From Candidatus Parcubacteria bacterium (GTDB lineage Bacteria; Patescibacteriota; Patescibacteriia; Patescibacteriales; UBA12075), in contig CAWFCE010000002.1 in assembly GCA_963814275.1 (NCBI GenBank), positions 42,537 to 106,536 of the forward strand: DNA of 64,000 bases, read 5' to 3'. The translations under genes and the position numbers were made by a program. The notes below the pieces were generated by a model. It made no database searches and had not been told where the DNA came from. It was given only the letters and a program-made list of their open reading frames with translations. Of this stretch, positions 22,867 through 49,924 are shown in pieces. How positions within the stretch are numbered: the stretch's first letter is position 1; each line of letters starts with the position of its first letter.

Positions 22867-25180
22867 TTATTCCTTTCTGGATATTCGACGTGAGCGGAGC
22901 AAAAATACGATTATAAGCGCAATCATTGCCAAAGCAGCAATAAGCAAATATGCCGTGGGCGATCGATGCCTCTCCCGGGGAGGCAGAGCCCACTCGTCAT
23001 CAGTCTGGATCTCGCCCAATATCTGGCCCGAGTCCTCGGCTTCCGACAATTCGATATCTTCCCGGCCGCGGGGCAGGAGTCGAAAACCGGAGGCGGTCCG
23101 GTTTACTATGCCGCTGACCATAAGCCGGTCGCCGACCTTGATGCCGCCGGCGGCAATGCCGGTCGCCTCTTTGATATAAACCGGCACTTCGTTCGTACCG
23201 TCGTCAAGGTACAGGCTTGACCCCTTGCGTTCCACCACTTCCCCGCTTATGCTTACCAGGCGTCCGGCGGCATTTTCATCGATCTCATCGCAACGGCAGC
23301 CGGCCGGATCAGGCGGATCCTGATGGGCCAATATCCTAATATCATCCCGCGCAGCGGTCTTTATCCGCTTTTCGCCATAAGCTTCACTGATCTCACCACT
23401 GACTTCGACCAGGTCGCCAACTGCAAATTCAGGAAAATCCTTGCTGTAATTGTACACCTGAATGCCGGGCGACCCGACAATATAGAAATATTGCGCGCCC
23501 AATACGCCCGGCAAAACAGCCGCCGTGCCTTGCACTTTCACCCGGTCGCCTTTTTCAAAATCATGGACATGCTCCAGGGTGGTCACTGTCCTTGTTTCGG
23601 CAGCGGTAGCCGGCTTGGCGCTTATTTGTCCGGCAGCCTTAGTTGGCACCGCAATCTTAATGACGTTGCGGCTGCCCGGCGTGGCTTCCGCGGTCCAGCG
23701 CCATTCACCCGTTTCGTCGCGCGCGAAGGCCTCGCCCTCTTTGACGCCGCTATAGTCCACCTCATCCACGATCGATTCGTTGCGGTCGATCAAACGCACG
23801 GAATCTACCGTATTATTCAATGCCAGGCCGGTTTCTTCGCGGTCAAAAAGGAAGTACGCCCCCGGATCCAGCCACACTTCGGCAGGCAGCGTGTATGGCC
23901 GGCTGCCGCCCTCGCCGTCATCCAGCCGCCAGTCGCGCAGATTGACCCTGGTGCCCCCCTGGTTGTATATCTCGATCCATTCCCCTTCGCTGTCCGTTCC
24001 CGTCGGATTAGGCACGAATTCGGAAATTATCAGGCGGCCGCCCGATGCGCCTATGTCCGGATTTTCGATTATTAAAGTTTTTTCTATATATACCCGGTGC
24101 TCGCCGTCGTTGACAGCCAAACTGACCATATATTCCCCCGGCCGGAAAAAAGTATGTTCCGGTACGGGCAAAGTATTGGTTGCTCCATCGCCGAAATCCC
24201 AATAAAAAGCCAATTTATCGTTATCCGGATCGCTCGTGTCACTGCTATCGAACAATACCGGTTGCCCCAGGATGGCATAATCCGGGAAATCGAAGCCGAT
24301 CTCCGGCGGCAAATTTTCATGCACTATTACGTTCGCCTTACCGGGCGTGGCAGTTTGCGTCCAAAAATAGGCCGGAGAAACGGCGCCTTCCGATATCCGC
24401 GCCTCACCATCGGAAATGTCGGCCGCATAGCCCTCGCCTTCATTGGCCGGTCCGTACGGCAACGAACAAACCGGCTCATCCGCCGATGGAGAATACAGAT
24501 TGACCGTATCGCCGTTATTATTTAACGCGATCCCGCTCTCGGACCGATAAACCGCCAAGTATTCTCCGGGCCGGATGGCCAGCTGTCCGCCGGCAGACGC
24601 CAGATTATAGCGCCGGCTGCTCGAATCGCCCAGGCGCCAACCGTCAAGGACTATTGTTTCCATGCCGAAGTTATAGAGCTCGATGAATTCACCATCCTGG
24701 TCAGCGCCCCTGGGGTCGGGCAATATCTCGGATATGATAACTTCCTTCTTATCGTCGCCATTCGTCGCAGAGACTGTCGCGGCAAGCGGAGCAGCATCGT
24801 TCGGTGTTGAAATAATGTTTTCAGTGCCTTTGGTCGGAATACTCGTGAGCGAAAAATCCTCGGCATCGTTATAGCTGTTACGGCCGTCGAATATACGGGC
24901 AATACCCATAGGATCGCGGGCAGCCGGCGCGTTATTGGACACGCTGCCGTCATCCCAATCGCCGTAAGCCACACTGTCGATCAAAACGCCGTTTGTTTCC
25001 CTTAGTTCCACTATATCGCCCGAATTATTGAGATTGCCTTTGGGTTTATCCACGACAAACCAGCCGTGTGTTTTGATACTGCCATTAAGCGATGTCTTTG
25101 CGCCGCTTCCCTCTATGATCACCCAGGCAGTCATATCGATATCCTCCGAACCCGGATTGTAGAGCTCAACCCATTCGTTG
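22867..25180 (-). pseudogene. C-terminal portion of an LTD/PKD surface-protein gene interrupted by the island
   Basis: It begins mid-domain at ...NEWVELYNPGSEDIDMTAW. It contains several lamin-tail-like repeats (EFIELYN, EWIEIYNQG), a PKD-like FYWDFGDGATNT, and a C-terminal TM anchor. The apparent MTIN start is a GTG inside the island terminal repeat. Confidence 0.85.
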
Positions 25181-26773
25181 ATTGTCACTCAAAAATGGTA
25201 ACGTACAAAAAACCTCCATTTCATTTCCAGAGATATATATTTTATCAATCACACGTTTATATATATCCCGCCTTTGTTGCGGTTTAATATTTTTTAGGTT
25301 GCGGGTATATTGAGCAAACATTTTAGTTAAATCTCTTTTTATTTGTTCCTTATTGTCATTAAATAATTGCCTTTCATTTAATTTATTAAGCTCTTTTATC
25401 ATTTCTTTCATTTCACCTTCAAGCTCTACTTTCTTTTTATAATAAATCTCTTTTAGAATTTGTTCATCTAAATACAAATCTAACAATCTTTTACTTTTAT
25501 CCTTTGCTGAGGCAATTAATTTTTCCAGCTCTTTGGTTCTGCTCATTATTTGAGCTGAGCTAATTTTTTTAGTTCTCATTTTTTCCATTAATCCCATCAC
25601 AACATCTGGATTAGAAATTATACTTTGTATCTTCTCCCACACAGGCGGCTCAATCATTTTTTCAGTCACACTGCCTGAATCGCATAAATTCTGTCGAAAA
25701 CTTGATAAGCTCCCATAACATTTATATCTAATTGACGGTTTATTTTTAGCATTACAATTATTGTAGCCACCATATTTATAACCACATTTTTTGCATAAAA
25801 TCATCCCCCCAAATAAATAAAGGTGTTTTGCTTTGCGCGTCGAGTATTGTTTATTTTTTCTGATTTGCTCCTGAACAGCTTGATGTTGAGCTTCGGTAAT
25901 TATTTGTGGGGTTTTAATTATTATCCAATCCTCTCTGGGTCGTAGGTTCTCATCATTTTTCACGCTCCCAACCTTCTTATATTTCCGATAAGTGAATTCA
26001 CCGCTGTACACCTCATTTTCAAGAATGCGATGAATTGTTCTGGTATTCCAAAAATATCTACCATTGGTCTTTTTGCTTCTTTTTGTTTTTTGGATAGCCT
26101 CATCTGATTTATTCTGTTTTTCTGATTGACTAATTAAATTATCAACCTTAGTAGGCACCTCTAAGGCTAACAGTCTCTTTTGTATTTTATATAAACTTAA
26201 ATGCTCTGTTATCACCCAATTATACATTTTACGGACCCATTTAGCTTCATCCTCATTTATAACTAGCATTTTCGTTTCTTTATTTAAGTTATAACCATAT
26301 GGTGGAGAACCCGCCCAATGATTTTTTTTCTTTGCCTCTAGCTGACCCATAAGCGTTCGGTCACGAATCATATCTCTCTCAAGTTCTGCGACCAAACCAA
26401 ACACCTGCATAAATGTTTTTCCTTGAGCTGAATTAGTATTTATGTTCTCTTTCACTGAAATGAAACCAACACCAAATTGTTTTAATTCGTCTACCATATT
26501 AAGTAACAAACGCAAATTGCGTGCATAGCGGTCTGTTTTATAAACGATAACAACATCAAATTTTTTTTCTCTTGCCCCCTTCATCAGCCTTTGAAGTTGT
26601 GGACGTTCTGACAAAAAACCACTATATCCCTCCTCTCTGAATATGAACTCTTTTGAATGTTTGAATCCATTATTTTCACAATACTTGATTAATTCCTCCT
26701 CCTGAACATCAAGGCTACATCCTTTAACCTGTTCATCGGAACTCACTCTAGTATAGATTGCTGCAGTTTCCAT
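25166..26773 (-). CDS. large serine recombinase (integrase)
   Basis: Resolvase catalytic domain (AAIYTRVSSDEQ, ...YKTDRYARN), a recombinase domain, a zinc ribbon (CKKCGYKY...CYGS...C) and a long coiled coil. The last 3 codons and the stop lie in host DNA beyond the crossover. Confidence 0.9.
   Translation of the reverse strand: METAAIYTRVSSDEQVKGCSLDVQEEELIKYCENNGFKHSKEFIFREEGYSGFLSERPQLQRLMKGAREKKFDVVIVYKTDRYARNLRLLLNMVDELKQFGVGFISVKENINTNSAQGKTFMQVFGLVAELERDMIRDRTLMGQLEAKKKNHWAGSPPYGYNLNKETKMLVINEDEAKWVRKMYNWVITEHLSLYKIQKRLLALEVPTKVDNLISQSEKQNKSDEAIQKTKRSKKTNGRYFWNTRTIHRILENEVYSGEFTYRKYKKVGSVKNDENLRPREDWIIIKTPQIITEAQHQAVQEQIRKNKQYSTRKAKHLYLFGGMILCKKCGYKYGGYNNCNAKNKPSIRYKCYGSLSSFRQNLCDSGSVTEKMIEPPVWEKIQSIISNPDVVMGLMEKMRTKKISSAQIMSRTKELEKLIASAKDKSKRLLDLYLDEQILKEIYYKKKVELEGEMKEMIKELNKLNERQLFNDNKEQIKRDLTKMFAQYTRNLKNIKPQQRRDIYKRVIDKIYISGNEMEVFCTLPFLSDNQRMG
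25175..25195. repeat. left junction (attL-like): core TCGTTG + island half-site TTGTCACTCAAAAA
   Basis: The core is identical to 40808-40813. 25182-25195 is the reverse complement (13/14) of 40789-40802. Confidence 0.8.
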
Positions 26774-27146
26774 ATATTTGCTAATATTAAATGTTTATAC
26801 TATTAATTATATCACACACGAAACTTTTATTGCTAATTTTAGCATTTTATTTTACCCCAGTTCGCATAAACCGACCCCATATTTATTCAACTAAACTGAA
26901 GTATTATTATTTATATTCTGAAAATAGTTTTTTCCTCTTTACCGTAGGTAAGAGGAAAATGTTTTCTATCAGAATATATTTATATCAGAATAATTATATA
27001 TATTATTTGCAGTTCCTGGAGAACGACCCAGGGGCTTCAGGTAAACTGGCATAATTGTTTTTAAAAACCGACCTCGCTGGTTTATAAAAACATACTGCTG
27101 AAGCCCCGTTTTCAAAAATCAGGGTCGAGAGATATTATGCTCCGAA

Positions 27147-27590
27147 TTATTCATCGGATTTTATTTTATTTTTATATCTGGGGCAACTCTCACATTCTTC
27201 TTTACAGCCCCAACAAGAGTCTAATTCGTAATCTGATAATTTACAGTTCAATAATCTAACTTTGTCAGTAAGACAAAAACAGGGCTTGATATAATTATGT
27301 ATATATCGTTTTACTAATTTATATTTAATAAGTTTATTGACCCGTTTCTGTATAGGCGAGCTGCTTGTTATTTTAATCAACGGCAACTCTTTACGCATAT
27401 TCTTATAATCAACCCAAACATAAATATCATCAGGCTTATTATTGTCACTGAATCTTACTAATCTTGAGTTTTTACTTTGGCACATCTTCATTATAAATGC
27501 CAGGATTGCTCCGTCAATCAAATCAAGTTCTCCCCCTCCGATTGTCTGTAGAACTTTTTGATTGATGAATATGTTGTACATCATACGCAT
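27147..27590 (-). CDS. putative winged-helix DNA-binding protein with Cys-rich C-terminus
   Basis: The region LDLIDGAILAFIMKMCQ...IQKRVNKLIKYKLVKRY looks wHTH-like, and the C-terminus is CWGCKEECESCPRYK. Function not established. Confidence 0.4.
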   Translation of the reverse strand: MRMMYNIFINQKVLQTIGGGELDLIDGAILAFIMKMCQSKNSRLVRFSDNNKPDDIYVWVDYKNMRKELPLIKITSSSPIQKRVNKLIKYKLVKRYIHNYIKPCFCLTDKVRLLNCKLSDYELDSCWGCKEECESCPRYKNKIKSDE

Positions 27591-27707
27591 TGTTCTTATT
27601 ATTTAAATTAAATACAAAATCAATCAGCTCTTCCATGATGGCCCGACCTTTAATATCATCTTCTGAGTATATGATTTTGATTTTAGGTTTATTCATTATT
27701 AAACAAA

Positions 27708-27801
27708 AAAACTTTAAAATTTTAAGTTTGACGCGGGTTAGGTTGGTATAGACCTATTCAGGATTGGGCCTGAAACGTCAAACTTATAATTTTAAAGTTT
27801 T
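27708..27801. repeat. long inverted repeat (26-bp arms, 42-nt GC-richer loop)
   Basis: aaaactttaaaattttaagtttgacg (27708-27733) pairs with cgtcaaacttataattttaaagtttt (27776-27801) with one mismatch. Confidence 0.75.
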
Positions 27802-27822
27802 GGATATACCATTTACCCTTTT

Positions 27823-27850
27823 AAAAAAAGCCAATGCTTTTGCATTGGCT
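27823..27850 (-). terminator. intrinsic terminator after the 148-aa zinc-ribbon gene
   Basis: The stem gccaatgc/gcattggc with loop tttt is followed on the minus strand by U7. Confidence 0.65.
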
Positions 27851-27916: not shown

Positions 27917-27997
27917 GTCCGCACATCGGTGGTTCGTCCGATGTTCATTATTCAATTATCAAATCTATATACAGAATAGCACACGAATAAATTTGTG

Positions 27998-28444
27998 TCA
28001 AGATTTAATGGCTGAATAATCCATTCCAATATGTTTACCTGTTTTTCTAAGTACTTCTAAATCGTGCAGTTGCCCACATTTTGGACAGTTAATGATTGCA
28101 TTTATACATTCAATTGAATTAACTCTGCCAGTAAATATTGTTATAGTGTCCTGAGGCGCATCATCATCAGGTTTTATTCCTAATTTGTTTGCCTTCTTGC
28201 ATATTGAACATTTACAATTATTTATCTCAGAAACATTTTTAATCTCACATTTAAATGTCGGGTGTTTTTTGCAAGTTATTTTGACCGGCATATAAAAAGC
28301 CATTTTTCTGTTTTCAGTGGTTTTTAAATTTTTCGGCAAATTAGGTATATAGTAATTTTCTTCTTCATTGAATTGGGCTATAAATTCGCCGCAATCTTCA
28401 CAGTATAATTTTTTCTTATTCATATAGTTTTGCAATTTATGCAA
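27998..28444 (-). CDS. multi-zinc-ribbon small protein
   Basis: Paired Cys motifs are present: CEDCGEF, CKKH...CE, CKCSICKK, CPKCGQ. Confidence 0.5.
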   Translation of the reverse strand: MHKLQNYMNKKKLYCEDCGEFIAQFNEEENYYIPNLPKNLKTTENRKMAFYMPVKITCKKHPTFKCEIKNVSEINNCKCSICKKANKLGIKPDDDAPQDTITIFTGRVNSIECINAIINCPKCGQLHDLEVLRKTGKHIGMDYSAIKS

Positions 28445-28543: not shown

Positions 28544-30403
28544 TTATAAATTTTCCACTAATGAAAAACTATCATATAGCACGTCAACCAAGCTTTTCCC
28601 ATCCGAAATTATTTTTTCTAAATCTTCTCCAGATATCGGCAATATATAAATTTTATCGTCTTTTAATTTTTTTAACGTCTCCCTACAAGATTGCGGATAT
28701 TTGTTTCCTAAACCAGTAAAACCAGATTTGCTCACAAATACACCATGGCTCCCCGGATTTCTTCCTATTTTAGATGCGAAGCAAGTTATTTCTTTGCTAT
28801 CTGTTTTTTCCAAAGTATTTTTACACTCTACTCTAAAATTTAAACCAAGGTTTGTAATTAATTTATCTTTAGTATGTCTATTTTCAAAAATCCTATCAAT
28901 TTCACCATCAGATGTTTGTTTGTCTTTTTCTATGCAATTTATTCCGTTTAAAGAGGAAAACAAATATTCCGCTAAATCTTCCAGAGACTCCTTTTTTTCC
29001 ACATTGTCTCTGCCATCAGATTGTTTAAATCTATAATATTTTTTTAAAAGTATTGCTCTATCAGGTTTGAAAATATCATCCGGCCTATGTTCTGGTCGGA
29101 TAAATCCGACGACAGAATAATTAATGTTTTCTTTAATTTGCCTAGACAAGCAACTGGGACATTCATCATAATCTTCAATTTTTTCATTGCTAATAAATCC
29201 ACACGTCAAACACCTAATTCCATTATTTTTTTTCAAAAGACCAACACTTATCAACCCCTTTATTAGTTTGTTTGCGGTTTCTTCTTCGCAATTCAAAGCT
29301 ATTTGAATAAAAAATTTTTCCAGTCTTTTTTGTTGGTCTAATGTAATATTTTTTAGAAACTCCTTTGCACATTCTCGCTCATCTTCTGTCAATTTTGTTT
29401 TTATTAATTTTTCATTTATTATTTCATCTGTAATTTCCCTGACTCTTCTTGTTTCACTCTGTTTAGGAAGATTTAAAATAGACAAATCAAGTTCATGCCC
29501 TGCTTTATATGTAAGCACCAATTTTAAAGCACTCAACACAAGAAAACTCTCTTCCTCAGTAATATGTTTAGGGATGTAAAAAGTTCCATCTTCAGAATTC
29601 CCCCTTACCCTCACGCCATTTTGTAAAATAAAAGTTGGGGCTATGTCCTCATAGTTATTTGCATTTACTATTTCAATTATTTTTTTAACATCAGAATTAT
29701 TGTCCGCATCATCTTGCACAGTTGCCATAGATATTTTTAAACTTGCTATACCGCCTGATTTTATTTGTAATGTATTACTATTCTTTACTGCCTTTAAAAT
29801 ATCTTTCATTTTTTGCAAATCTTGATTAGTAAATTTTATTTTTATCTTATCCAATCCTAGATTTTCAGAAATCCAATTTTCAATTATTTCTATTTTCTCT
29901 TTTCTACATCTTATTTCTAATATATTTTCAAGTTCGTGAATCACGATGATTGCAAAAATGGGCGGCGTATATGTAATTGGAGTCCACTCATCCCTGACAA
30001 TTTTACTATCTCCCCTGAAAGCGATATGTATATACAATTTATTTTCTTTTTTTGAAAAAAAAGAAATTTGTGGCTTCTCATTCAATTTTGGTTTTAATTC
30101 TTTTTCCGGAATAATACTTTTGGTTATTTCATGATATAAATCACCGTCTTTCTTTTTTTCTATTTGATAATATATATAGGTTGAGGCCCTTCTTGTGTGA
30201 TTATATTGTTCTGACACAGAAAATATTTCAGCTTCAGAAACACAAGCCATTACTTTCTCTCTAATTAAATTTATATTGCCACCAACTGGTATTCCTTTTG
30301 TTCTAGCAATATTTTTAAAAACCTGAGTGGGTATTTCTCTTATATGCATATACATATTTAAAACGACTATTAATAGGTCATTTATAACAAAATTATACCG
30401 CAA
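28544..30403 (-). CDS. Mrr-like (PD-(D/E)xK) restriction-endonuclease-domain protein with large unknown N-terminal region
   Basis: The C-terminus DGEIDRIFE...FRVECKNTLEKTDSKEITCFASKI...GVFVSKSGFTG matches the Mrr_cat pattern (D...D...ExK...FxTTSxFT). An internal CLTCG...CPSC ribbon is present. The real start is probably ATG at 30355, because TATAAT on the minus strand at 30392-30397 lies inside the longest ORF. Confidence 0.65.
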   Translation of the reverse strand: MRYNFVINDLLIVVLNMYMHIREIPTQVFKNIARTKGIPVGGNINLIREKVMACVSEAEIFSVSEQYNHTRRASTYIYYQIEKKKDGDLYHEITKSIIPEKELKPKLNEKPQISFFSKKENKLYIHIAFRGDSKIVRDEWTPITYTPPIFAIIVIHELENILEIRCRKEKIEIIENWISENLGLDKIKIKFTNQDLQKMKDILKAVKNSNTLQIKSGGIASLKISMATVQDDADNNSDVKKIIEIVNANNYEDIAPTFILQNGVRVRGNSEDGTFYIPKHITEEESFLVLSALKLVLTYKAGHELDLSILNLPKQSETRRVREITDEIINEKLIKTKLTEDERECAKEFLKNITLDQQKRLEKFFIQIALNCEEETANKLIKGLISVGLLKKNNGIRCLTCGFISNEKIEDYDECPSCLSRQIKENINYSVVGFIRPEHRPDDIFKPDRAILLKKYYRFKQSDGRDNVEKKESLEDLAEYLFSSLNGINCIEKDKQTSDGEIDRIFENRHTKDKLITNLGLNFRVECKNTLEKTDSKEITCFASKIGRNPGSHGVFVSKSGFTGLGNKYPQSCRETLKKLKDDKIYILPISGEDLEKIISDGKSLVDVLYDSFSLVENL

Positions 30404-34438: not shown

Positions 34439-35203
34439 CTAAATTGCAAAAACATTTAATTCAATATTTTTATTATTTATACCTTTATATTTAGTTTTCC
34501 CTTTGTATATACGATTATTAATAATATATCTCACAGTGCCTGCGTGCCATTTACCACCCCTCGCAGTTTTTATATTTAAACGATTCAATTCTTTCACAAT
34601 TTCTCTTAAACTCATTTTTCTTCTTAATTGAAATATAAATCTTACTACTTCTGCTTGCGATTTATTAACCAGCAACTTCTTATCCTTAGAAACATATCCA
34701 TAAGCCGGGCTACCGCCAGCATAGCCACCTTTTTCAGCTTTCTTGATTCTTCCATTCATCATTCGCATTGTTATTAATCCTTTTTCATATTGCGCCACTG
34801 CTGAAAGCATTTGCCTGAATAGCACCCTCGTAATATCTTTACTATCTAAATCCGGTTCTTTAATTGAAATTATTTGTTTGCCTTTTCTCTCCTGTAAATC
34901 ATAAATAATATTTTCTTGAATTCTTAAATCTCTTGCAAGTCTGTCGAGTTTGTATATTATTATTCCATCAACGTTTTGATTTACCTCAATGTAATTAAAC
35001 ATTTCCGACATTCCTTTTCTATCGTGCCATTCAAGACTGCCACTTACTCCATCATCCTTAAATGTTTCTATCAATCTTATATTATTCTTGTCTGCATAAG
35101 ATTTTAAATCTTCAACTTGATGATTTATGGTTCCTTCCTCTTTTTGATTTTCAGTTGATGTACGGCAATAGCCAATTAAATTTAATCGCTTCACTTTATC
35201 CAT
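34439..35203 (-). CDS. short serine recombinase (resolvase domain + recombinase domain, no zinc-ribbon or coiled coil)
   Basis: LIGYCRTSTENQ carries the catalytic Ser, with ...YKLDRLARD. The recombinase-domain region reads GGSPAYGYV...VRFIFQL...LNRLNIKTARGGKWHAGTVRYIINNRIYKG. The protein ends where large serine recombinases continue. Confidence 0.8.
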   Translation of the reverse strand: MDKVKRLNLIGYCRTSTENQKEEGTINHQVEDLKSYADKNNIRLIETFKDDGVSGSLEWHDRKGMSEMFNYIEVNQNVDGIIIYKLDRLARDLRIQENIIYDLQERKGKQIISIKEPDLDSKDITRVLFRQMLSAVAQYEKGLITMRMMNGRIKKAEKGGYAGGSPAYGYVSKDKKLLVNKSQAEVVRFIFQLRRKMSLREIVKELNRLNIKTARGGKWHAGTVRYIINNRIYKGKTKYKGINNKNIELNVFAI

Positions 35204-35516
35204 AGAGGTATTTGATTATGTTTTTAAATTTTGTCGGTTCAAAATACAAATCTCTCTCAATGCCAAGCCCGAAGCTACCAACAAAGCTTTCAAGCTCATA
35301 CAAACTGAATGAACCCCATTCATCATTATGGTCGCCGAAAATTGACACATAGCCATAGAATATTTTACTTTCCTCATCATATTCTGTGGCGAACCAAGTC
35401 CCCTGACCTTGCGGATTAAAAAATTTACAGACAACAATAGGATTATCATTGTCTGATTGTGAGCCAATTTTTTTGAATTGTTTAATTAGCTCTGGAGTTA
35501 ATAGTTTCATAAGCAA
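35196..35516 (-). CDS. DUF2958-like protein
   Basis: KFFNPQGQGTWFATEYDEE...FYGYVSIFG...EWGSFSLYELE matches the remembered DUF2958 pattern seen on plasmids and ICEs. It overlaps the recombinase start by 8 nt. Confidence 0.6.
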   Translation of the reverse strand: MLMKLLTPELIKQFKKIGSQSDNDNPIVVCKFFNPQGQGTWFATEYDEESKIFYGYVSIFGDHNDEWGSFSLYELESFVGSFGLGIERDLYFEPTKFKNIIKYLYG

Positions 35517-35570: not shown

Positions 35571-36020
35571 TTATTTGGTTTTATTTTTTTCAATTTCATT
35601 TTTTATATCTTGTTTAATTCTTCCAAAAAATGAATTCTTTTTTCTTTCTTCCTTTTCGATTCTCTTTCTCTTCTGCTCTTCATATTTAATAAATTTTTTT
35701 ATAACGTCCTTTGCCCACCACTTATCAGTTTTAATTGGCAGGTCATTTTTTATAAATATTTTTGCTGTCTTGATTTTTTTATTCCCTGAAAAACCACCCA
35801 ACGCTTTAAATTCATATTCTTGATGCAATAATAAATATTGTTGATTTTTATTATACTCGGCTATTTTACATAAAGGAAAAAACTCTTTTAAATAGCTTTC
35901 AAATTTTTGAATACCGGCAGGATAAATATTATTATCATTTAAAAACTCACCGCAATGTTTACATTTTATTGCTTCAATTTTTATTTCTTCTGCACAGTAT
36001 GGGCATTTTTTTGTATCCAT
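35571..36020 (-). CDS. zinc-ribbon domain protein with Lys/Glu-rich tail
   Basis: The N-terminus is KKCPYCAEEIKIEAIKCKHCGEFL. Confidence 0.6.
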   Translation of the reverse strand: MDTKKCPYCAEEIKIEAIKCKHCGEFLNDNNIYPAGIQKFESYLKEFFPLCKIAEYNKNQQYLLLHQEYEFKALGGFSGNKKIKTAKIFIKNDLPIKTDKWWAKDVIKKFIKYEEQKRKRIEKEERKKNSFFGRIKQDIKNEIEKNKTK

Positions 36021-36030
36021 ATGATTTTAA

Positions 36031-36050
36031 ACCTAAAATGTATTTTAGGT
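36031..36050. promoter_or_regulatory. 20-bp palindrome ACCTAAAATGTATTTTAGGT (operator-like), copy 1
   Basis: 9-bp arms with a 2-bp centre, 10 bp upstream of the 35571..36020 start codon. An identical copy lies at 40317-40336. Confidence 0.55.
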
Positions 36051-36065
36051 CTGTTATTATTTTCC

Positions 36066-36185
36066 AACAAAAAGGACCGCCTGTCGGCGATTCCTTTGCA
36101 GGAATCCATCACCCTTTCGGATGACGGCCACGTGAATAGCTCCGACTCGACGGTCGTCTTTATTCACGTGGACTTTCGACCATAT
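36066..36185 (-). ncRNA. candidate structured RNA / 3'-UTR element (GC-rich, unclassified)
   Basis: An 11-bp perfect stem (36128-36138 / 36161-36171). In minus-sense RNA there is a 9-bp stem capped by GAAA, a C-GAAA-G hairpin, a 6-bp stem (gauucc/ggaauc), and a terminal CGCC-GACA-GGCG hairpin followed by UCCUUUUU. G-U pairs favour the minus strand. Confidence 0.4.
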
Positions 36186-36365
36186 CCTTAACAATTTGCC
36201 AAGGGGTTAGGTCTTAATTTAATTGTTTTATATTTTATAGAGCTATTATACCATTTACAAGCTAAAATTCAACCATATTTTCAGTTGTGTGACGTGTTTG
36301 TCGTATAAATTGATATTATTACATTTTATGGTTAAAAATTTCATACAATGCGTTTTATGGATAAT

Positions 36366-37229
36366 TCAATAAATATCGTAATCTAAAGCCATATCAATAA
36401 AATTTTTTAACTGCTTCCTGCTGTTAATTTCAGTATTCTGATAGTCTAAGATTATAAAATTATTTTTTAGCCTGTCTTTGTTTTCCTTTTTTTTAATTTT
36501 TTTAATCTCTTCAAAATATGATATTGACTTATCTTTTCTGAACACAATGGGACCCTCTGTTATTGCACAACTTGCATAGCTGAAGTAACTTTGCGAATTT
36601 ATATCTCGCGGTAGTTTTTTTATCAATATTTTTTTTCTACTCGCATTGTACCTGATAAGATTAAATATCACATCTCTTGAATTATTACAATCCTCAAATG
36701 ACATTGGTTCATTATCAAAATAATCTTGATGAAGCCATATCTCGTGAAATCCAGGCTTTATTGCAATCAATTCGGCGTAGATACTGAAATAGTTTTTTAT
36801 ATCAAGCTTTCTCAAGCTTTTTAGAATTATAAAGAGACGCTTTCGCGCCTCTGAAAATTTTGCTCTCTTTTTTGCCTCAAGACTAAAGCCCTGGCTTTCC
36901 CAAAAATAATCATTCGGCTTTCTGTGTTTTGTTCCTCCCTGATATACATTCAAGGAGGCCATCGACTGGTAAGCACGATTTTTTGTTGCTCGCAAAAAAA
37001 ATCGCGGGGCAATGGCCATCCTTGAATTGAATATACATTTTAAATATTCTAGTCTACAAAAATTAAATACTCTCTCCAACTCCTCAATTAAATAATTAAT
37101 ATTTTTAAAATCAAAAACGACCCCTTGAGGGTCGGCAGGTGATAATTGGTATTTTGACGTTCTATAATTGTATTTTTGTATATAATCATTCATATATACA
37201 ATTATATAGGATATTGGTATATTTGTCAA
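36366..37229 (-). CDS. hypothetical protein (287 aa), last gene of five-gene operon
   Basis: ORF with island-like composition, 34 nt downstream of the preceding gene. No motif recognised. Confidence 0.6.
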   Translation of the reverse strand: MTNIPISYIIVYMNDYIQKYNYRTSKYQLSPADPQGVVFDFKNINYLIEELERVFNFCRLEYLKCIFNSRMAIAPRFFLRATKNRAYQSMASLNVYQGGTKHRKPNDYFWESQGFSLEAKKRAKFSEARKRLFIILKSLRKLDIKNYFSIYAELIAIKPGFHEIWLHQDYFDNEPMSFEDCNNSRDVIFNLIRYNASRKKILIKKLPRDINSQSYFSYASCAITEGPIVFRKDKSISYFEEIKKIKKKENKDRLKNNFIILDYQNTEINSRKQLKNFIDMALDYDIY

Positions 37230-37263
37230 ATTTTAATGCTAATATTAGTAAATATTATTTAAT

Positions 37264-38700
37264 TCAATTAATGTTTTTCTCTAATAAAAACTTTTCGATA
37301 GATTTTTTCCATTCTTGAAGATGTTCAATCGAATTGTTGTCAAAATGATTTTTAAATGTTTCATAATTAGTATTCAAATCGCCTAATAATGATTGAATAT
37401 TTTTTTCTCTTATATCTTCAAATTCTTTTCTCTTTACCTCTAAATAATGTCTTAATGAAACATCTTTAGTCTCGGTGGTAGCAAATTCACGAGAAACCAA
37501 TCGACCATTAACCTTAAAGGTTGATTTTTTTACTCTTCCAAATACTGCCTGAAAATTCTCAATAAAATCTTTATATTCGCTTAGGTGTGCATTGCAGGTA
37601 CTGCAAGAACAAATTTTGTCTTTAAATATCTGATATTCAGAAATATTTAAAATTTCCAAAATAGTCAGCATCTCTTTATAACTAATTCTTTTATGGAGAG
37701 GGTATAAATAAAATTTTGGTACTGGCAAGCCACCGCCCACTGGAACTACTGGTCTTGATTCTCCATATTCAAGACCGTGACAAACACCATCTAATAAACC
37801 AACATCATTATTGCTTAGTAAGATAGAAAAATATGAGCCGTACAATGAATATATTTTTTTTGATGTCCTTGTTTTAATTTCATTCAGAAGTTTAATATAT
37901 ATATCAAGATTTTCTGAAATTTCTTCGTGCTCCACATAATTATCTATCCATAATAAAAAACCATCCGCATTACTATCTATGTATCTATCTATAATAGCTT
38001 TTTTGAGTTCGCTATCATCAAAATTTTCTCTTGCTTTTTCAATAAATTTTTTACTTAACACTATCTGACCATATACTGGCAAATCACGCTCTATTACTTT
38101 AGCTTTATTTATTAGTGCAACATTTTTTTCTACCCATTCAGTTTTGTCAATATAAAAATAAGGAGCTATCAAAAACTCGGGCTTACTTTTAAATTCAATA
38201 TCAAAATCTTCCTCTTTTTCATTTGCATAATCTATGTATTCTTTATATTGGTCTACTTTCTTTTCTACGGAAATGTTTTTTTGGTAATTCAATACATTTG
38301 CAGTAAAGGTTTCTATAAATTGCTCATCGACATCATCGGGATATAAGGGTTTTTTGGGAATTAGAATTTCTTTACCATTTTTATCTTCAATACACCCAGT
38401 AATTAAATTTTTTAATTCATCACCATATTGAATAATCAAATTTGATATAGATTTTTTAATCTTCTCATCATCAGACCCTAAAATAAAAGATTGATTATGT
38501 TGAAAGGCGTGAGTTATTGGGTCAATAATAAATGGTTGCTCTGTGGTACTTTTAACAATAAAAGAAGCAAGGGCAACAGGAGAAAAAGCAACCATATTTG
38601 CATTGATTACTATTTTGTCATAATTATTCTCCAAGCCATTACCAAAAAAATATTTTTGTTCTGCATTTGTGCCGTATCTTAATAAATGTTCACTTGCCAT
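37264..38700 (-). CDS. hypothetical 478-aa protein with TGT/DpdA-like hallmarks
   Basis: An alternating beta/alpha-like pattern is visible (FIIDPITHAFQ, LIAPYFYI, GFLLWIDN, IYSLYGSYF, LLDGVCHGLEYGESR), followed by CSCSTC...H. That CxCxxC...H arrangement is the TGT zinc-site layout. This is a hypothesis only. Confidence 0.6.
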   Translation of the reverse strand: MASEHLLRYGTNAEQKYFFGNGLENNYDKIVINANMVAFSPVALASFIVKSTTEQPFIIDPITHAFQHNQSFILGSDDEKIKKSISNLIIQYGDELKNLITGCIEDKNGKEILIPKKPLYPDDVDEQFIETFTANVLNYQKNISVEKKVDQYKEYIDYANEKEEDFDIEFKSKPEFLIAPYFYIDKTEWVEKNVALINKAKVIERDLPVYGQIVLSKKFIEKARENFDDSELKKAIIDRYIDSNADGFLLWIDNYVEHEEISENLDIYIKLLNEIKTRTSKKIYSLYGSYFSILLSNNDVGLLDGVCHGLEYGESRPVVPVGGGLPVPKFYLYPLHKRISYKEMLTILEILNISEYQIFKDKICSCSTCNAHLSEYKDFIENFQAVFGRVKKSTFKVNGRLVSREFATTETKDVSLRHYLEVKRKEFEDIREKNIQSLLGDLNTNYETFKNHFDNNSIEHLQEWKKSIEKFLLEKNIN

Positions 38701-38707
38701 ACCATTT

Positions 38708-39157
38708 TTATAATGAAAGTAATAATTGATAATTATTATTACTCAAAGAATATTCTAAATTACTAAACAAAATTTTTTTTGCTCTTTTAACAATAGTATT
38801 TTTTTGTGGCTTTATTTCCATGGAAACTTTCTGCGTTTGCATATCAAACAATATTAAGCCCAATTTATTTTCTTTAATTTCTTTATGTAATACTTCTTTA
38901 TATTCTTGTTTTGGTAAACATAGACACAAATATTCAGCACCAATAGAGTGGTTTCTAGCTTGTTTTATCCCCTTTCTCCAATCTTTCAATTTAAATTCAA
39001 TTGCATATAAATTCCCCTTTCTGTCTTTGTAGACGACATCTATACTATTGTCAAAAAAAGGAACTTCTACTGAAAATATTTTGTTGTTTTTAAAATAGGC
39101 TTTACAAAAATTTACTACCATTTCTCTTTCATCATAATGGTTAATATTTGTTTTCAT
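38708..39157 (-). CDS. small PD-(D/E)xK nuclease-fold protein
   Basis: SVEVPF...SIDVVYKD...LYAIEFKLKDWRKGIKQA gives an E...D...ExK...Q arrangement. Confidence 0.5.
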   Translation of the reverse strand: MKTNINHYDEREMVVNFCKAYFKNNKIFSVEVPFFDNSIDVVYKDRKGNLYAIEFKLKDWRKGIKQARNHSIGAEYLCLCLPKQEYKEVLHKEIKENKLGLILFDMQTQKVSMEIKPQKNTIVKRAKKILFSNLEYSLSNNNYQLLLSL

Positions 39158-39641
39158 ATTTATTCTTTAAACTACTCTTTAAAAAATATATAATAGCGGT
39201 GCCAAAGATGTTATAAATTAAAACAATAAAAAATAACACCACCAAAAAATACGAATGATTATTCAAAAAATCTTTTGCCTTGTCTGTTAAATTTGCAACT
39301 ACCAATACAACCCCAAGTAGAAAGAAAATAAGATTTAAACCAAAATAAAATCTATAAATAAACCTACACCTTAAGAGATGTTTTTCAAATACATTGTTAT
39401 TATCAGTACTTTCACAAATTTCTGAAAGATACTTATCTAGGTCATCACCTCCAAATTTAGAAACATTAATAGAAATTATCTTTTTTAAGTCTTCAATTTT
39501 TCGTGAACGTATGAGTTTATGTACTTTTTCAAAAAAATCATCAGTATCTTTCATCTTTAAATCAAAAACACCTAACAATGATATTATAAAAGATAAAGCT
39601 GGGGCAAACAAAATAAGCAATGCTGAATATAATGGCTGCAT
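39141..39641 (-). CDS. three-TM membrane protein
   Basis: One N-terminal TM segment (LLILFAPALSFIISLLGVF), a soluble insert of about 70 aa, and two C-terminal TM segments. It overlaps the downstream gene by 17 nt. Confidence 0.6.
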   Translation of the reverse strand: MQPLYSALLILFAPALSFIISLLGVFDLKMKDTDDFFEKVHKLIRSRKIEDLKKIISINVSKFGGDDLDKYLSEICESTDNNNVFEKHLLRCRFIYRFYFGLNLIFFLLGVVLVVANLTDKAKDFLNNHSYFLVVLFFIVLIYNIFGTAIIYFLKSSLKNKYENKY

Positions 39642-39652
39642 AAATGTAGGTA

Positions 39653-40237
39653 TTAACAGGATTTCACCTTGCTTTTAATTATACTTTTTTCAGTATAATC
39701 CGGGTATTTACTGTAAACATAATTAATTATTTCATTAAGATTAATCTGATTAAATCTTTTTTTAAGTTCAGTAATTATATTAATTTGATTTTCAGTTACT
39801 ATCGGAATAATCTTTTCTTTCATATAATTTAACCCAAGTGAAGTTAAGCTATATTTATATTCAATATATTCATCCTCGGAGGATTCGCCTAATGAAGAAT
39901 CATCTATGAGTGCAGTATATTCATCAGCCTCTTCAAAGGCTAATGAATTTTTGTTCTCATCATACTTGATAAAATGTATTTTTATAAAAAATTCTAAATC
40001 CTCTAGAACCTCTTTAGACATTGGCCCGAATTTCCACGCAAAAAATTCAGGTAAGTCATCTTTATCTAATATTGACTTATCTTTTTTAAATAAGCCATAA
40101 CATTCTTTCTCAAATACAAAAACCATTTTTGTTAATCTGGTTCGTCCCGCAATAGGTTCATTTATTTCTTTCGCCCTACCGGGAGTATATAACATTAATA
40201 ACAATAAATCACTAGATTTTAGTTTACTTTTAGCCAT
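39653..40237 (-). CDS. Panacea/DUF4065 (SocA-like) domain protein
   Basis: TRLTKMVFVFEKE... and FAWKFGPMSKEVLEDL match the remembered DUF4065 signature (kLqKLlY...W.yGPv...vy). Confidence 0.5.
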   Translation of the reverse strand: MAKSKLKSSDLLLLMLYTPGRAKEINEPIAGRTRLTKMVFVFEKECYGLFKKDKSILDKDDLPEFFAWKFGPMSKEVLEDLEFFIKIHFIKYDENKNSLAFEEADEYTALIDDSSLGESSEDEYIEYKYSLTSLGLNYMKEKIIPIVTENQINIITELKKRFNQINLNEIINYVYSKYPDYTEKSIIKSKVKSC

Positions 40238-40316
40238 TTTATTATATATTATCTCACTCTTTTGTTTTATAATTATATCATATTTAGCGCTATTATAGCA
40301 ACATTTTAATTATCAG

Positions 40317-40336
40317 ACCTAAAATGTATTTTAGGT
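40317..40336. promoter_or_regulatory. 20-bp palindrome ACCTAAAATGTATTTTAGGT (operator-like), copy 2
   Basis: Identical to 36031-36050. It lies about 80 bp upstream of the Panacea-like gene start. Confidence 0.55.
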
Positions 40337-40348
40337 ATTATCCAATAA

Positions 40349-40762
40349 TCACAGGTTAATTCTCTTTAAAAAGGTATTTTCGCCAGATTTTTCTAAAATT
40401 TTCAACTCTCTTATTACGGTTTTAAAATAATTCGTATTTTGATTATCAATTTTTACTATATCCCAACTTTTTTCACCTTTCATATGTAGGTTTACAAAAT
40501 TTCGTCTAACTTCGATATATAAAAAGATAAAACGTTTCATTAAAGATATTTTCTTTTGTGAAATTTGTATTGTTAAACCCTTGTGCTTCTGGCATTCATT
40601 AATAAAAACTTTAACTTCCTTTTTTATTGTTTCATTCTTAGATTTATTCAGGTGATACCCTAATGAATATATGCGGCTAGGTAAATGCTCAGGCGGTTTT
40701 TTAATAATCCCATTATTGTCATAAAAATTACTCGAGGCATTTGAATAATCCCTAGTAAGCAT
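40349..40762 (-). CDS. hypothetical 137-aa protein at the right island end (possible recombinase C-terminal extension or RDF)
   Basis: ORF with island-like composition. It is in the same codon phase as the recombinase when the island ends are joined (see findings). Confidence 0.5.
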   Translation of the reverse strand: MLTRDYSNASSNFYDNNGIIKKPPEHLPSRIYSLGYHLNKSKNETIKKEVKVFINECQKHKGLTIQISQKKISLMKRFIFLYIEVRRNFVNLHMKGEKSWDIVKIDNQNTNYFKTVIRELKILEKSGENTFLKRINL

Positions 40763-40788
40763 CTTGCAATCAAACTTTATTTCAATAT

Positions 40789-40813
40789 TTTTTGAGTGGC
40801 AACCTACTCGTTG
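40789..40813. repeat. right junction (attR-like): island half-site TTTTTGAGTGGCAA + core TCGTTG
   Basis: This is the inverted copy of 25182-25195, with a core identical to 25175-25180. Confidence 0.8.
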
Positions 40814-49915: not shown

Positions 49916-49924
49916 CTCTCCGCT

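What the first reader, a model, noticed from the sequence alone, without database searches (positions are those of the whole stretch)
25175..40813. A 15.6-kb AT-rich integrative island splits a lamin-tail-domain surface-protein gene, and the empty site reconstructs in frame
The minus-strand ORF 40804..41661 ends ...VVINEIVMDPADGGNE, followed by a TAG that lies in AT-rich DNA. The ORF 22867..25188 resumes at ...NEWVELYNPGSEDIDMTAW. Joining host base 25180 to 40814 and keeping one copy of TCGTTG gives ...GGC GGC AAC GAA TGG GTT GAG CTC..., which translates as DPADGGNEWVELYNPG. That is the canonical beginning of an LTD repeat, like the EFIELYN and EWIEIYN repeats elsewhere in the same protein. 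So everything between the two junctions is an insertion. It opens with a large serine recombinase, is flanked by the 6-bp duplicate, and is strikingly more AT-rich than either flank. It also lacks the heptamer-word hairpins that fill host intergenic regions.
Basis: seen in the sequence. Interest (0 to 1): 0.8.

Follow-up and report, generated by a model that had tools for sequence, protein, structure and literature searches.

The report
Recombinase island splits surface-protein gene
A 15.6-kb mobile DNA island was pasted by its own serine recombinase into a surface-protein gene of a tiny "candidate phyla radiation" bacterium, and its relatives insert at the same conserved protein-motif DNA; this is a clean new example of an ordinary mechanism.

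Summary
A 15,633-bp segment (GC 0.30, flanks 0.48) interrupts a lamin-tail-domain (LTD) gene. Removing it and keeping one TCGTTG gives an open 1,053-aa frame. That frame aligns without a gap to intact Patescibacteria orthologues, one of them at the same chromosomal locus in a related genome.

The island is a large-serine-recombinase (LSR) integrative element. The rebuilt attP is a 40-bp imperfect palindrome centred on a GA/TC dinucleotide that lies inside the 6-bp identity. The arm motif occurs only at the two island ends.

Nine independent relatives (LSR identity 78% to 33%) sit in LTD genes. Eight are cut at the Glu codon before W/F/Y of E[WF][IV]E[LI][YF]N, and one at the INE motif. Two lie in the opposite orientation, and there the dinucleotide reads TC relative to the LSR gene. 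Two relatives are complete (9.8 and 8.9 kb) and also rebuild in-frame LTD genes.

Cargo is variable: DNA methyltransferases, nuclease-like proteins and a Panacea-domain protein. No phage or conjugation genes were found.

The attP core lies inside the LSR ORF, so host DNA supplies the last codons and the stop.

No empty site or circular junction of this strain was found. I rate it a new member of a known kind, of moderate interest.

The parts
22867..25180 (-). C-terminal 771 codons of the split LTD surface-protein gene: three LTD repeats, a PKD domain, an OB fold and a C-terminal membrane anchor.
   Evidence: This fragment is the database protein P0121.
25175..25180 (.). attL core TCGTTG. The inferred crossover dinucleotide is TC at 25175-25176, which reads GA in recombinase sense.
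25177..25195 (-). P' arm of attP, TTTTTGAGTGACAATCAAC. It lies inside the last codons of the recombinase gene.
25166..26773 (-). Large serine recombinase, 535 aa. Its last three codons (R-M-G) read across the core identity into host DNA: the final two codons (ATG GGT) and the stop lie beyond the 6-bp core, and only the last 2 bp of CGA are the shared crossover GA.
   Evidence: Pfam Resolvase 4.8e-39, Recombinase 1.3e-16 and Zn_ribbon_recom 3.3e-7. Catalytic R9, S11, R82 and R85 are invariant. PDB relatives are TP901-1, SPbeta SprA and Bxb1.
27147..27590 (-). 147-aa protein with weak similarity to phage replication-initiation proteins. It is conserved next to the recombinase in the closest relative, L001.
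   Evidence: phrog_428 at 4.7e-5. 39% identity to L001.
27708..27801 (.). Hairpin with 26-nt arms (96% complementary) and a 42-nt loop. It is a candidate origin or terminator; its function is not tested.
27998..28444 (-). 148-aa Cys-rich protein, also conserved in L001.
   Evidence: 37-38% identity.
28544..30403 (-). 619-aa protein with a C-terminal Mrr-type restriction-endonuclease domain.
   Evidence: Pfam Mrr_cat at 1.7e-4, 22.1 bits against a cut-off of 21.
30551..32710 (+). 719-aa protein with a 4Fe-4S dicluster motif, convergent with the methyltransferase genes. It is a possible restriction partner; this is inferred only.
   Evidence: Fer4_7 at 2.1e-4 (below cut-off) and ferredoxin-like NCBIfam hits. 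No PDB relative.
32691..33461 (-). N6/N4 DNA methyltransferase, 256 aa.
   Evidence: Pfam N6_N4_Mtase at 6.5e-53. NCBIfam adenine-specific methyltransferase at 1.4e-48.
33445..34332 (-). Second N6/N4 DNA methyltransferase, 295 aa.
   Evidence: Pfam N6_N4_Mtase at 4e-24.
34439..35203 (-). Second serine recombinase, truncated at 254 aa. It has the catalytic domain and the first 60% of the recombinase domain, but no zinc ribbon.
   Evidence: It is 27-29% identical to the N-terminal halves of the LSRs of this clade.
35196..35516 (-). DUF2958 protein, 106 aa.
   Evidence: Pfam 4.9e-18.
35571..36020 (-). 149-aa protein with an N-terminal zinc ribbon; function unknown.
   Evidence: Pfam Zn_ribbon_3 at 9.9e-7, 28.5 bits against a cut-off of 27.
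36089..36213 (-). LOOT RNA, a structured RNA of unknown function. Local GC is 0.50.
   Evidence: Rfam RF03000, 74.8 bits against a gathering score of 46.4, full length.
36366..39157 (-). Three genes of unknown function: 287 aa (36366-37229), 478 aa (37264-38700) and 149 aa (38708-39157).
   Evidence: No Pfam, PHROG, PADLOC or NCBIfam hit for any of the three, and no PDB hit for the 478-aa protein.
39141..40237 (-). 194-aa SocA/Panacea-domain protein followed by a 166-aa protein that looks membrane-embedded. A toxin-antitoxin pair is possible but inferred only.
   Evidence: SocA_Panacea at 3.9e-4 (below cut-off). PADLOC PDC-M19A at 2e-8.
40349..40762 (-). 137-aa gene at the far end of the island. 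Its homologues elsewhere are stand-alone proteins of 100-152 aa.
40789..40807 (+). P arm of attP, TTTTTGAGTGGCAACCTAC.
40808..40813 (.). attR core TCGTTG, with the crossover TC at 40808-40809.
40814..41661 (-). N-terminal codons of the split LTD gene: signal/anchor region, LTD repeat 1, a Cys-rich DUF4215 region and the start of LTD repeat 2. As ORF 40804-41661 the fragment is 285 aa, its last three codons lying across the TCGTTG core.

Best explanation
The interval is an integrative genomic island of a Patescibacteria (CPR) bacterium. It was inserted by its own large serine recombinase (LSR).

Proposed mechanism:
- LSR dimers bind a roughly 40-bp imperfect palindrome on the free, circular element (attP). 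That site overlaps the 3' end of the LSR gene.
- LSR dimers also bind a site in the host chromosome (attB) that codes for the conserved LTD motif ...G-N-E|W-V-E-L-Y-N.
- Both sites are cut with a 2-nt stagger at a central GA. This GA is the first two bases of the Glu codon.
- The half-sites are rotated and religated. This gives attL and attR with no base gained or lost.
- The non-palindromic GA fixes the orientation of the insert.

Consequences:
- The LTD gene is split into a 285-aa fragment that still has its signal/anchor region and a 771-codon fragment that has none.
- Precise excision would restore the gene.

Cargo:
- Two DNA methyltransferases with candidate nucleases, a Panacea-domain protein, a structured RNA and genes of unknown function.
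- No phage or conjugation genes were found.

The element belongs to a clade of Patescibacteria LSR elements whose conserved trait is the use of LTD-motif DNA as attB.

Shown here: the insertion, in-frame restoration, att anatomy, LSR domain set and catalytic residues, and family-wide target choice.

Inferred only: the exact crossover dinucleotide, present-day activity, excision and its control, how the element moves between cells, and the function of the cargo.
For: Insertion and restoration:
- The rebuilt ORF is 1,053 aa.
- Intact orthologues align across the junction without a gap.
- Pfam LTD spans the junction over positions 6-108 of 109.
- A relative with the same gene order has an intact gene at this locus.
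- The host is Patescibacteria: GyrA is 72-81% identical to its top listed homologues, and nearly all of those that carry a name are Patescibacteria, Parcubacteria or Falkowbacteria.

Foreign origin:
- GC is 0.30 against 0.48, and the tetranucleotide distance is 3-4 times the host background.

Recombinase:
- It has Resolvase, Recombinase and Zn_ribbon_recom domains.
- The catalytic Ser and Arg residues are invariant.
- Structural relatives are TP901-1 Int, SPbeta SprA and Bxb1 Int.
- The AlphaFold2 model shows the long coiled-coil helices followed by two final strands.

att sites:
- In attP, 17 of 24 positions are symmetric about GA. In attB only 4 of 24 are.
- The arm motif occurs only at the two ends.

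Family (junction table):
- Same orientation, GA followed by ATGG/GTGG/ATAT, i.e. E|W or E|Y of the LTD motif: L001 (78%), L167 (42%), L165 (37%), L166 (34%), L006 (34%) and L007 (33%).
- L088 (34%) is cut at INE|L of the orthologous repeat.
- L002 (42%) and L169 (38%) are inverted relative to the LTD gene, and there the dinucleotide reads TC in LSR sense.
- The spacing from TTTG (CTTG in L169) to the dinucleotide is 17 nt in eight sites.
- L165 (9,775 bp) and L088 (8,887 bp) are complete. Both rebuild in-frame LTD genes and palindromic attP sites (16/24 and 18/24).
- L089 carries an uninterrupted attP-like palindrome at the LSR 3' end with no intact LTD reading frame beside it.
- The cores shared by attL and attR (CAACGA, AACGA, GACGAATGGATTG) all contain ACGA, with GA at the centre of symmetry.

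No phage, relaxase or type IV secretion genes were found.
Against: - No empty site of this strain was found in genome or metagenome assemblies, and no circular junction in viral contigs (0 hits). Mobility in this population is therefore not shown.
- No recombination directionality factor was recognised. The small HTH_17 gene that precedes the LSR in L003, L165 and L166 is absent here.
- No confident replication or transfer function was found. The only hint is phrog_428 at 4.7e-5.
- attB has almost no dyad symmetry (4 of 24).
- The far junctions of L002, L006 and L007 lie outside the fetched DNA, and those of L001, L166, L167 and L169 were not recovered either. The family picture therefore rests mostly on one junction per element.
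- The truncated second recombinase suggests the island is a composite, so part of it may be a decaying remnant.
Confidence: 0.88

Rival explanations
1. It is an integrated plasmid-like episome. The element replicates as a free circle and uses the LSR to park in the chromosome.
For: - The 147-aa ORF beside the LSR weakly resembles phage replication-initiation proteins and is conserved in L001.
- A large hairpin lies next to it.
- Relatives carry an HTH_36 protein (L088), a DnaA-like ATPase (L165) and a DnaG-type zinc ribbon (the P0002 locus).
- L089 shows an uninterrupted attP.
Against: - The replication hints are weak and differ between elements. No replication gene is shared across the clade.
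- No circular contig was recovered.
- This reading refines the main explanation. It is not an alternative to LSR integration.
Confidence: 0.25
2. It is a prophage, a phage satellite or the remnant of one.
For: - Most characterised LSRs are phage integrases. The best phage matches are 27% identical.
- Intragenic insertion is typical of LSR phages (own knowledge: comK, sigK, spsM).
Against: - PHROGs and Pfam find no capsid, terminase, portal, tail or lysis gene in any of the 16 ORFs.
- The complete relatives are only 8.9 and 9.8 kb.
Confidence: 0.05
3. It is a domesticated regulatory cassette. Programmed excision restores the LTD gene under some condition, as with the skin element in sigK or phage excision from comK.
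For: - Excision would rebuild the gene exactly.
- The LSR is intact.
- Durrant et al. report that LSR target genes are enriched in DNA-competence genes (PMC10083194).
- Homologues of this LTD-OB protein include ComEA-domain fusions.
Against: - The strong compositional foreignness argues for recent arrival.
- The syntenic relative lacks the element.
- Cargo varies almost completely between relatives.
- No RDF or regulator was identified.
Confidence: 0.08
4. It is an assembly or binning chimera. An AT-rich contig of another organism was joined by mistake inside the LTD gene.
For: The GC jump is abrupt, and the source is a metagenome-type assembly on a 1.27-Mb contig.
Against: - Both junctions fall at the same 6-bp core.
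- The flanks rejoin in frame.
- The ends are an inverted-repeat attP next to an LSR gene.
- Ten independent assemblies show the same type of junction.
Confidence: 0.02

Closest known systems
Large serine recombinase integrases that insert into coding genes: Listeria A118/phi10403S Int in comK, Bacillus SPbeta SprA in spsM, the skin element SpoIVCA in sigK, and TP901-1 and Bxb1 Int.
   Same: - The same three-domain architecture with a coiled coil.
- A short palindromic attP and a different attB that share only a few bases around a 2-bp crossover.
- Conservative insertion that splits a gene and can restore it exactly.
   Different: - Sequence identity to phage LSRs is at most 27%.
- The host is a CPR bacterium.
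- The element has no phage genes.
- The target is a domain motif repeated four times in the gene, not a unique site.
- The attP core lies inside the LSR ORF.
Site-specific LSR clusters catalogued by Durrant et al. 2022 (PMC10083194). In these, distantly related LSRs share one conserved site inside a coding sequence, such as the Mg-chelatase/ComM-like gene or prolyl isomerase.
   Same: LSRs down to 33% identity use the same conserved coding site. This is the pattern that paper uses to call an LSR clade site-specific.
   Different: - LTD genes do not appear among the target genes in the passages of that paper I read; its full target tables were not checked.
- No paper in the library combines 'lamin tail domain' with 'serine recombinase'.
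- Here the shared target is a Pfam-domain motif present in non-orthologous proteins (190-aa to 1,053-aa LTD proteins) and at two positions in the domain (E|W and INE|L).
Integration-dependent immunity of cluster G, N and P mycobacteriophages (Broussard 2013, reviewed in PMC9262239), and SSV1-type integrases whose gene contains attP.
   Same: attP lies inside an ORF of the element. Integration therefore replaces the C-terminal codons, and host DNA provides the stop.
   Different: - Those systems use tyrosine integrases.
- The gene affected there is the repressor, which loses a degradation tag, or the integrase is split in two.
- Here only the last 17-28 codons of a serine integrase are exchanged, and no functional consequence has been shown.
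Defence or restriction-modification islands carried by integrative elements.
   Same: - The cargo includes two methyltransferases, an Mrr-type nuclease domain and a Panacea-domain protein.
- Relatives carry Eco57I/MmeI-type and type I-like modification genes.
   Different: - PADLOC recognises no complete known system.
- Most cargo has no detectable family.

Membership tests
Large serine recombinase (serine integrase) | N-terminal resolvase-type catalytic domain with the Ser nucleophile and conserved Arg residues. | tested here: met
   PF00239 at 4.8e-39 over residues 4-152. R9, S11, R82 and R85 are invariant in alignments of 8 and 40 sequences.
Large serine recombinase (serine integrase) | Recombinase domain plus a zinc-ribbon domain carrying a coiled-coil insert. 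| tested here: met
   PF07508 at 1.3e-16 and PF13408 at 3.3e-7. Cys327, 330 and 364 are conserved. The AF2 model has long helices at 371-508 followed by two strands.
Large serine recombinase (serine integrase) | attP of about 40-50 bp with imperfect dyad symmetry around a non-palindromic central dinucleotide. attB is different and shares only a short core. | tested here: met
   The rebuilt attP is symmetric at 17 of 24 positions about GA. attB and attP share 6 bp. The same holds for L165 and L088 and for the intact site in L089.
Large serine recombinase (serine integrase) | Conservative recombination: no bases gained or lost and no target-site duplication. | tested here: met
   Removing the island and keeping one copy of the core restores an open, colinear frame in the window, L165 and L088.
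Large serine recombinase (serine integrase) | Orientation of integration is set by the central dinucleotide. | tested here: inconclusive
   The two elements inverted relative to the LTD gene (L002, L169) have TC where the others have GA, at the same 17-nt spacing. This is consistent, but only one junction of each was available and no experiment was done.
Large serine recombinase (serine integrase) | Excision depends on a recombination directionality factor. | not testable with these tools
   RDFs have no common sequence signature. No candidate was recognised in the window. An HTH_17 gene precedes the LSR in three relatives.
Temperate phage / prophage | Genes for capsid, terminase, portal, tail or lysis. 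| tested here: not met
   None was found by Pfam, PHROGs or NCBIfam among the island's ORFs.
Integrative conjugative or mobilisable element | Relaxase and oriT, with or without a type IV secretion system. | tested here: not met
   No relaxase, coupling-protein or T4SS family was detected. Divergent proteins could have been missed.
Multi-targeting serine transposases (TndX/TnpX-like, DUF4368 clade of Durrant et al.) | DUF4368 domain and insertion into many unrelated genes. | tested here: not met
   There is no DUF4368 hit. All ten elements examined are in LTD domains.
Restriction-modification system (cargo) | A methyltransferase together with a cognate endonuclease. | tested here: inconclusive
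   The two N6_N4 methyltransferases are clear. The endonuclease candidates are only a borderline Mrr_cat hit (22.1 bits against 21) and an unannotated 719-aa Fe-S protein. PADLOC gives no system.

The most novel reading that the evidence does not exclude
In this clade the attP crossover lies inside the recombinase ORF. Integration therefore swaps a C-terminal strand encoded on the far side of attP for a few host-encoded residues.

Free-form tails:
- ..LPFIFRVKL.. (L165)
- ..LPTFCFRVML.. (L088)
- ..PLKFYFKVKL.. (L089)
- ..IKFDCKML.. (window)

Integrated tails: RMG*, RMD*, RMDRDL*.

The novel reading is that this tail exchange is functional. The free and integrated elements would make different recombinases. 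That difference would bias the reaction toward integration, toward stability or toward excision. It would be a serine-integrase counterpart of integration-dependent immunity.

A second reading is also not excluded: because the target is a repeated domain motif, one element can choose among many attB sites per genome and across Patescibacteria lineages.
Probability: 0.2. Interest if true: 0.7.

Novelty: new member of a known kind. Interest (0 to 1): 0.45.

Why it matters
- Mobile elements of Patescibacteria (CPR) are poorly described, and these organisms are hard to manipulate genetically.
- This work gives three complete LSR elements with defined attP and attB pairs, and a clade-wide target rule: the Glu codon before W/F in the LTD motif. 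These could be tested directly as integration tools for CPR bacteria or as orthogonal integrases elsewhere.
- It shows how an element can obtain a broad host range by aiming at DNA that encodes the most conserved motif of an abundant surface-protein domain.
- It explains why some LTD genes in CPR genome bins are annotated as truncated fragments.
- It places the orphan LOOT RNA inside a CPR mobile element.

Tried and rejected
1. A 685-aa recombinase in the free form.
- In the circular form the LSR ORF reads in frame through attP into ORF 40349-40762.
- I rejected this as a conserved architecture. All 120 listed LSR homologues cover only the first ~78% of the fusion, and the full-length ones among them are about 450-680 aa.
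- The 137-aa ORF has stand-alone homologues of 100-152 aa that align from their own N-termini.
- Free-form tails in L165, L088 and L089 are only 17-28 codons.
- By my estimate, chance alone would give such a read-through about 10% of the time.

2. Empty site and circular junction.
- Exact 24-mers gave 0 hits in genome contigs, metagenome contigs and viral contigs.

3. Far junctions of L001, L002, L006, L007, L166 and L167.
- For L002, L006 and L007 the far junctions lie outside the 10-kb flanks.
- An arm-similarity search recovered the far ends of L165 and L088 only.

4. Tail motif.
- P0007 looked like a free-form tail but is host antisense LTD sequence.
- The similar motif in P0042, P0048 and P0020 may correspond to the preceding strand instead. 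P0042 is inserted beside a tRNA gene.
- AF2 predicts a strand for IKFDCKM in the window free form, but only at pLDDT about 50.
- The idea is kept only as the novel case.

5. PADLOC, PHROGs, NCBIfam and PDB searches left most cargo unannotated.

6. LOOT RNA was sought in 11 related loci and found only in L007.

7. The source organism's name could not be recovered.

Full report
OBSERVATION

- Left junction: ...CAACCCAT TCGTTG ATTGTCACTCAAAAA (TCGTTG at 25175-25180).
- Right junction: TTTTTGAGTGGCAACCTAC TCGTTG CCGCCATCGGCC (TCGTTG at 40808-40813).

On the minus strand, ORF 40804-41661 ends ...VVINEIVMDPADGGNE followed by TAG. ORF 22867-25188 begins at a GTG inside the AT-rich DNA and reads VTINEWVELYNPGSEDIDMTAW.

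The interval is 15,633 bp. Its GC content is 0.299, against 0.480 for the rest of the window. Its tetranucleotide profile is 0.59-0.65 away from the host profile in the three 4-kb blocks wholly inside it (28001-40000), and 0.355 in the block that straddles the left junction. Every other 4-kb block lies within 0.15-0.20.

THE GENE IS RESTORED

Removing the interval and keeping one TCGTTG gives a 1,053-codon ORF with no internal stop.
- A search with this protein found the window's own 773-aa fragment and more than a hundred full-length relatives.
- Twelve of the closest were aligned. They are 1,002-1,084 aa, 39-51% identical and cover 96-100%. They cross the junction with no gap: VINE[FL]VxDPxDxxxE|W[IV]E[LI]YN.
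- The rebuilt repeat matches Pfam LTD over positions 6-108 of 109 (58 bits). The C-terminal fragment alone matches only 23-108 (41.9 bits).

The flanking genes are housekeeping genes: GyrA, FtsK, SMC, PhoH and S1. GyrA is 72-81% identical to its top listed homologues, and nearly all of those that carry a name are Patescibacteria, Parcubacteria or Falkowbacteria.

A related assembly, GCA_030600505.1, has the same gene order (SMC, small gene(s), LTD, FtsK, Lactamase_B, further genes, GyrA) with an uninterrupted 1,036-aa LTD gene. At the homologous position its DNA matches the rebuilt attB at 31 of 50 bases. This serves as an empty site in a relative, although not in the same strain.

ATT SITES

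Read in recombinase sense, the rebuilt sites are as follows.
- attP: TACCATTTTTGAGTGACAATCAAC GA GTAGGTTGCCACTCAAAAAATATT. It is symmetric at 17 of 24 positions.
- attB: ATGGATCCGGCCGATGGCGGCAAC GA ATGGGTTGAGCTCTACAATCCGGG. It is symmetric at only 4 of 24.

The centre of symmetry of attP falls on GA, which is inside the 6-bp identity CAACGA. The 19-nt arm motif occurs twice in the 64-kb window, only at the two island ends and in inverted orientation. Chance expectation is 0.17. The 6-bp "duplicate" is therefore the core shared by attP and attB, not a target-site duplication.

THE RECOMBINASE

ORF 25166-26773(-) has Resolvase, Recombinase and Zn_ribbon_recom domains.
- Its catalytic Ser and Arg residues are invariant in alignments.
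- Its relatives with solved structures are TP901-1 Int, SPbeta SprA and Bxb1 Int.
- It is at most 27% identical to any phage integrase in the phage collection.
- Its ORF reads across the crossover. The codons after CAA CGA, namely ATG GGT TGA, are host DNA.

THE FAMILY

LSR relatives were fetched from public assemblies, and their 3' junctions were read (table).

Nine independent elements besides the window lie in LTD genes.
- L001 (78% LSR identity), L167 (42%), L165 (37%), L166 (34%), L006 (34%) and L007 (33%) all show arm-GA followed by ATGG, GTGG or ATAT. That is the Glu codon before W or Y of E[WFY][IV]x[LI]xN, in the same orientation as in the window.
- L088 (34%) is inserted in the orthologue of the window's own protein, in the same repeat but 14 codons upstream, at INE|L.
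- L002 (42%) and L169 (38%) are inverted relative to the LTD gene. The LTD frame is cut after ...DTEGE| and ...DIEKE|. At the same 17-nt distance from TTTG (CTTG in L169), the dinucleotide reads TC in recombinase sense, which is GA in LTD sense.

This is the result expected if the asymmetric dinucleotide alone sets polarity, as is established for serine integrases (own knowledge).

L165 (9,775 bp) and L088 (8,887 bp) have both ends on one contig.
- Removing them rebuilds ...VVINEIAWMGTENSSNDE|WIELYNN... and ...LGDVVINE|LVSDPTDEEVEWIELYN... respectively.
- Their attP sites are symmetric at 16 of 24 and 18 of 24 positions.

The cores shared by attL and attR in the three complete elements are CAACGA, AACGA and GACGAATGGATTG. 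All contain ACGA, with GA at the centre of symmetry.

L089 carries an uninterrupted palindrome, GTTTTGCAACCAAGCCAAC TC GTTGGTGTAAATACAAAAC, at the LSR 3' end, with no intact LTD reading frame beside it. It is probably a free form.

Protein tails of further homologues (..RMD*..RVD*..RMDRNFQ..) are what the +1 frame of GA(A/G)TGGAT(T/A)GA gives. P0009 and P0015 were confirmed at the DNA level; the rest (P0008, P0010-P0014) are predicted from their tails only.

More distant LSRs are not next to LTD genes. P0042 abuts a tRNA gene.

CARGO

The island carries the following.
- Two N6/N4 DNA methyltransferases.
- A 619-aa protein with a borderline Mrr nuclease domain.
- A convergent 719-aa Fe-S protein.
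- A truncated second serine recombinase of 254 aa, with DUF2958 next to it.
- A Panacea-domain protein followed by a protein that looks membrane-embedded.
- Several genes with no detectable family.

No phage structural, relaxase or secretion genes were found. Only the two ORFs upstream of the LSR are shared with the closest relative, L001. Otherwise cargo differs almost completely between elements, although modification genes recur. The conserved unit is therefore the LSR plus attP.

MECHANISM

Shown:
- A foreign segment bounded by an LSR-type attL and attR.
- Exact in-frame restoration.
- An intact LSR.
- A clade-wide choice of LTD-motif DNA as target.

Inferred:
- Cleavage at GA with a 2-nt stagger, followed by subunit rotation and religation.
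- Orientation set by GA.
- The element is, or recently was, active.
- Excision needs an unidentified directionality factor.
- Transfer between cells is by an unknown route.

The host pays with a split surface protein. The N-terminal fragment keeps the signal/anchor region. The C-terminal fragment has none.

THE RECOMBINASE TAIL

Because the core lies inside the LSR ORF, the free form must end differently.
- In L165, L088 and L089 the ORF continues 17-28 codons. It contains a similar motif (LPFIFRVKL, LPTFCFRVML, PLKFYFKVKL) encoded with different synonymous codons.
- The window has IKFDCKML and then runs on into the next gene.
- The run-on is probably accidental.

Whether the short tail matters is open.
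- A similar motif in more distant LSRs may be a different strand.
- AF2 gives the window's tail strand only pLDDT about 50.

I keep this as the novel case, at about 20% probability. Its nearest precedent is integration-dependent immunity in mycobacteriophages, where attP lies inside the repressor gene (PMC9262239).

COMPARISON AND NOVELTY

By all sequence-testable criteria the enzyme is a large serine recombinase and the element an LSR integrative island.

Durrant et al. (PMC10083194) already showed that distant LSRs often share one conserved site inside a coding gene, and that target genes are enriched in competence genes.

What is new here:
- The host group.
- The target. It is a domain motif repeated within and between proteins, used at two positions and in both orientations.
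- The position of attP inside the LSR ORF.

No paper in the searchable library links LTD genes with serine recombinases, or Patescibacteria with serine-recombinase integrative elements.

I rate it a new member of a known kind, with interest 0.45. It is well supported and useful for CPR genetics and genome annotation, but the mechanism is the expected one.

WHAT FAILED

- No empty site or circular junction of this strain was found in three collections.
- The far ends of most relatives are out of reach.
- The organism's name was not recoverable.
- Most cargo is unannotated.

Noticed in passing
window 36089-36213 (-); L007 5412-5533 (-): A full-length LOOT RNA (Rfam RF03000, 74.8 bits against a gathering score of 46.4) lies inside the island, in a GC-rich patch (0.50) between two genes. 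A second copy (91.6 bits) lies 4.5 kb upstream of the related recombinase in a Parcubacteria MAG. None was found in the other ten related loci searched. From memory, this motif is an orphan known mainly from metagenomes, so this may give it a host group and a mobile-element context.
   Followed up: partly
window 7820-7919, 11236-11308, 47192-47285, 49844-49931, 57025-57091, 60087-60172: Host intergenic regions carry hairpins whose arms are tandem 7-nt words, with a different word at each site (for example CAGATAG/CAGATAA, GCACATA/GCACGCA, ATCGTAA). None occurs in the island. Their function was not examined.
   Followed up: partly
window 25181-26773 joined to 40813-40349 (circular form): In the excised circle there is no stop codon between the recombinase and the 137-aa gene at the other end. 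A 685-aa fusion would therefore be translated. Homologue lengths argue that this is not a conserved architecture.
   Followed up: yes
window 34439-35516: A second serine recombinase is cut off after 254 aa. It overlaps a DUF2958 gene and sits directly next to the methyltransferase genes. It looks like the relic of another element, so the island may be a composite.
   Followed up: partly
window 26835-26856, 28434-28455, 30403-30424: A 22-nt motif (AATTTTAGCATTTTATTTTACC, 82-100% identical) recurs at or just upstream of the starts of the recombinase gene, the 148-aa gene and the 619-aa gene. It is possibly a shared promoter or operator.
   Followed up: no
window 36031-36050 and 40317-40336: An identical 20-nt perfect palindrome, ACCTAAAATGTATTTTAGGT, occurs twice in the island, each time in a gap between genes. 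One copy lies just downstream of the LOOT RNA.
   Followed up: no
L003 9774-9989; L165 5891-6073; L166 9819-10004; L170 789-1007: A small HTH_17 (excisionase-like) gene accompanies the recombinase in several relatives but not in the window. It lies immediately upstream of the LSR in L003 and L166, about 2.2 kb upstream in L165 and about 4.5 kb upstream in L170. It is a candidate directionality factor.
   Followed up: partly
homologues of the rebuilt LTD protein: Many homologues of the split LTD-PKD-OB protein carry ComEA-type helix-hairpin-helix domains and are named competence protein ComEA by one source. This hints that the target gene is involved in DNA binding or uptake. That would fit the reported enrichment of competence genes among LSR targets.
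   Followed up: no
L170 7300-7345: A more distant recombinase of the same superfamily (P0042, 591 aa) ends right beside the 3' end of a tRNA gene. It carries an N6_N4 methyltransferase and a ResIII helicase gene as cargo. Target choice therefore changed within the wider family.
   Followed up: partly
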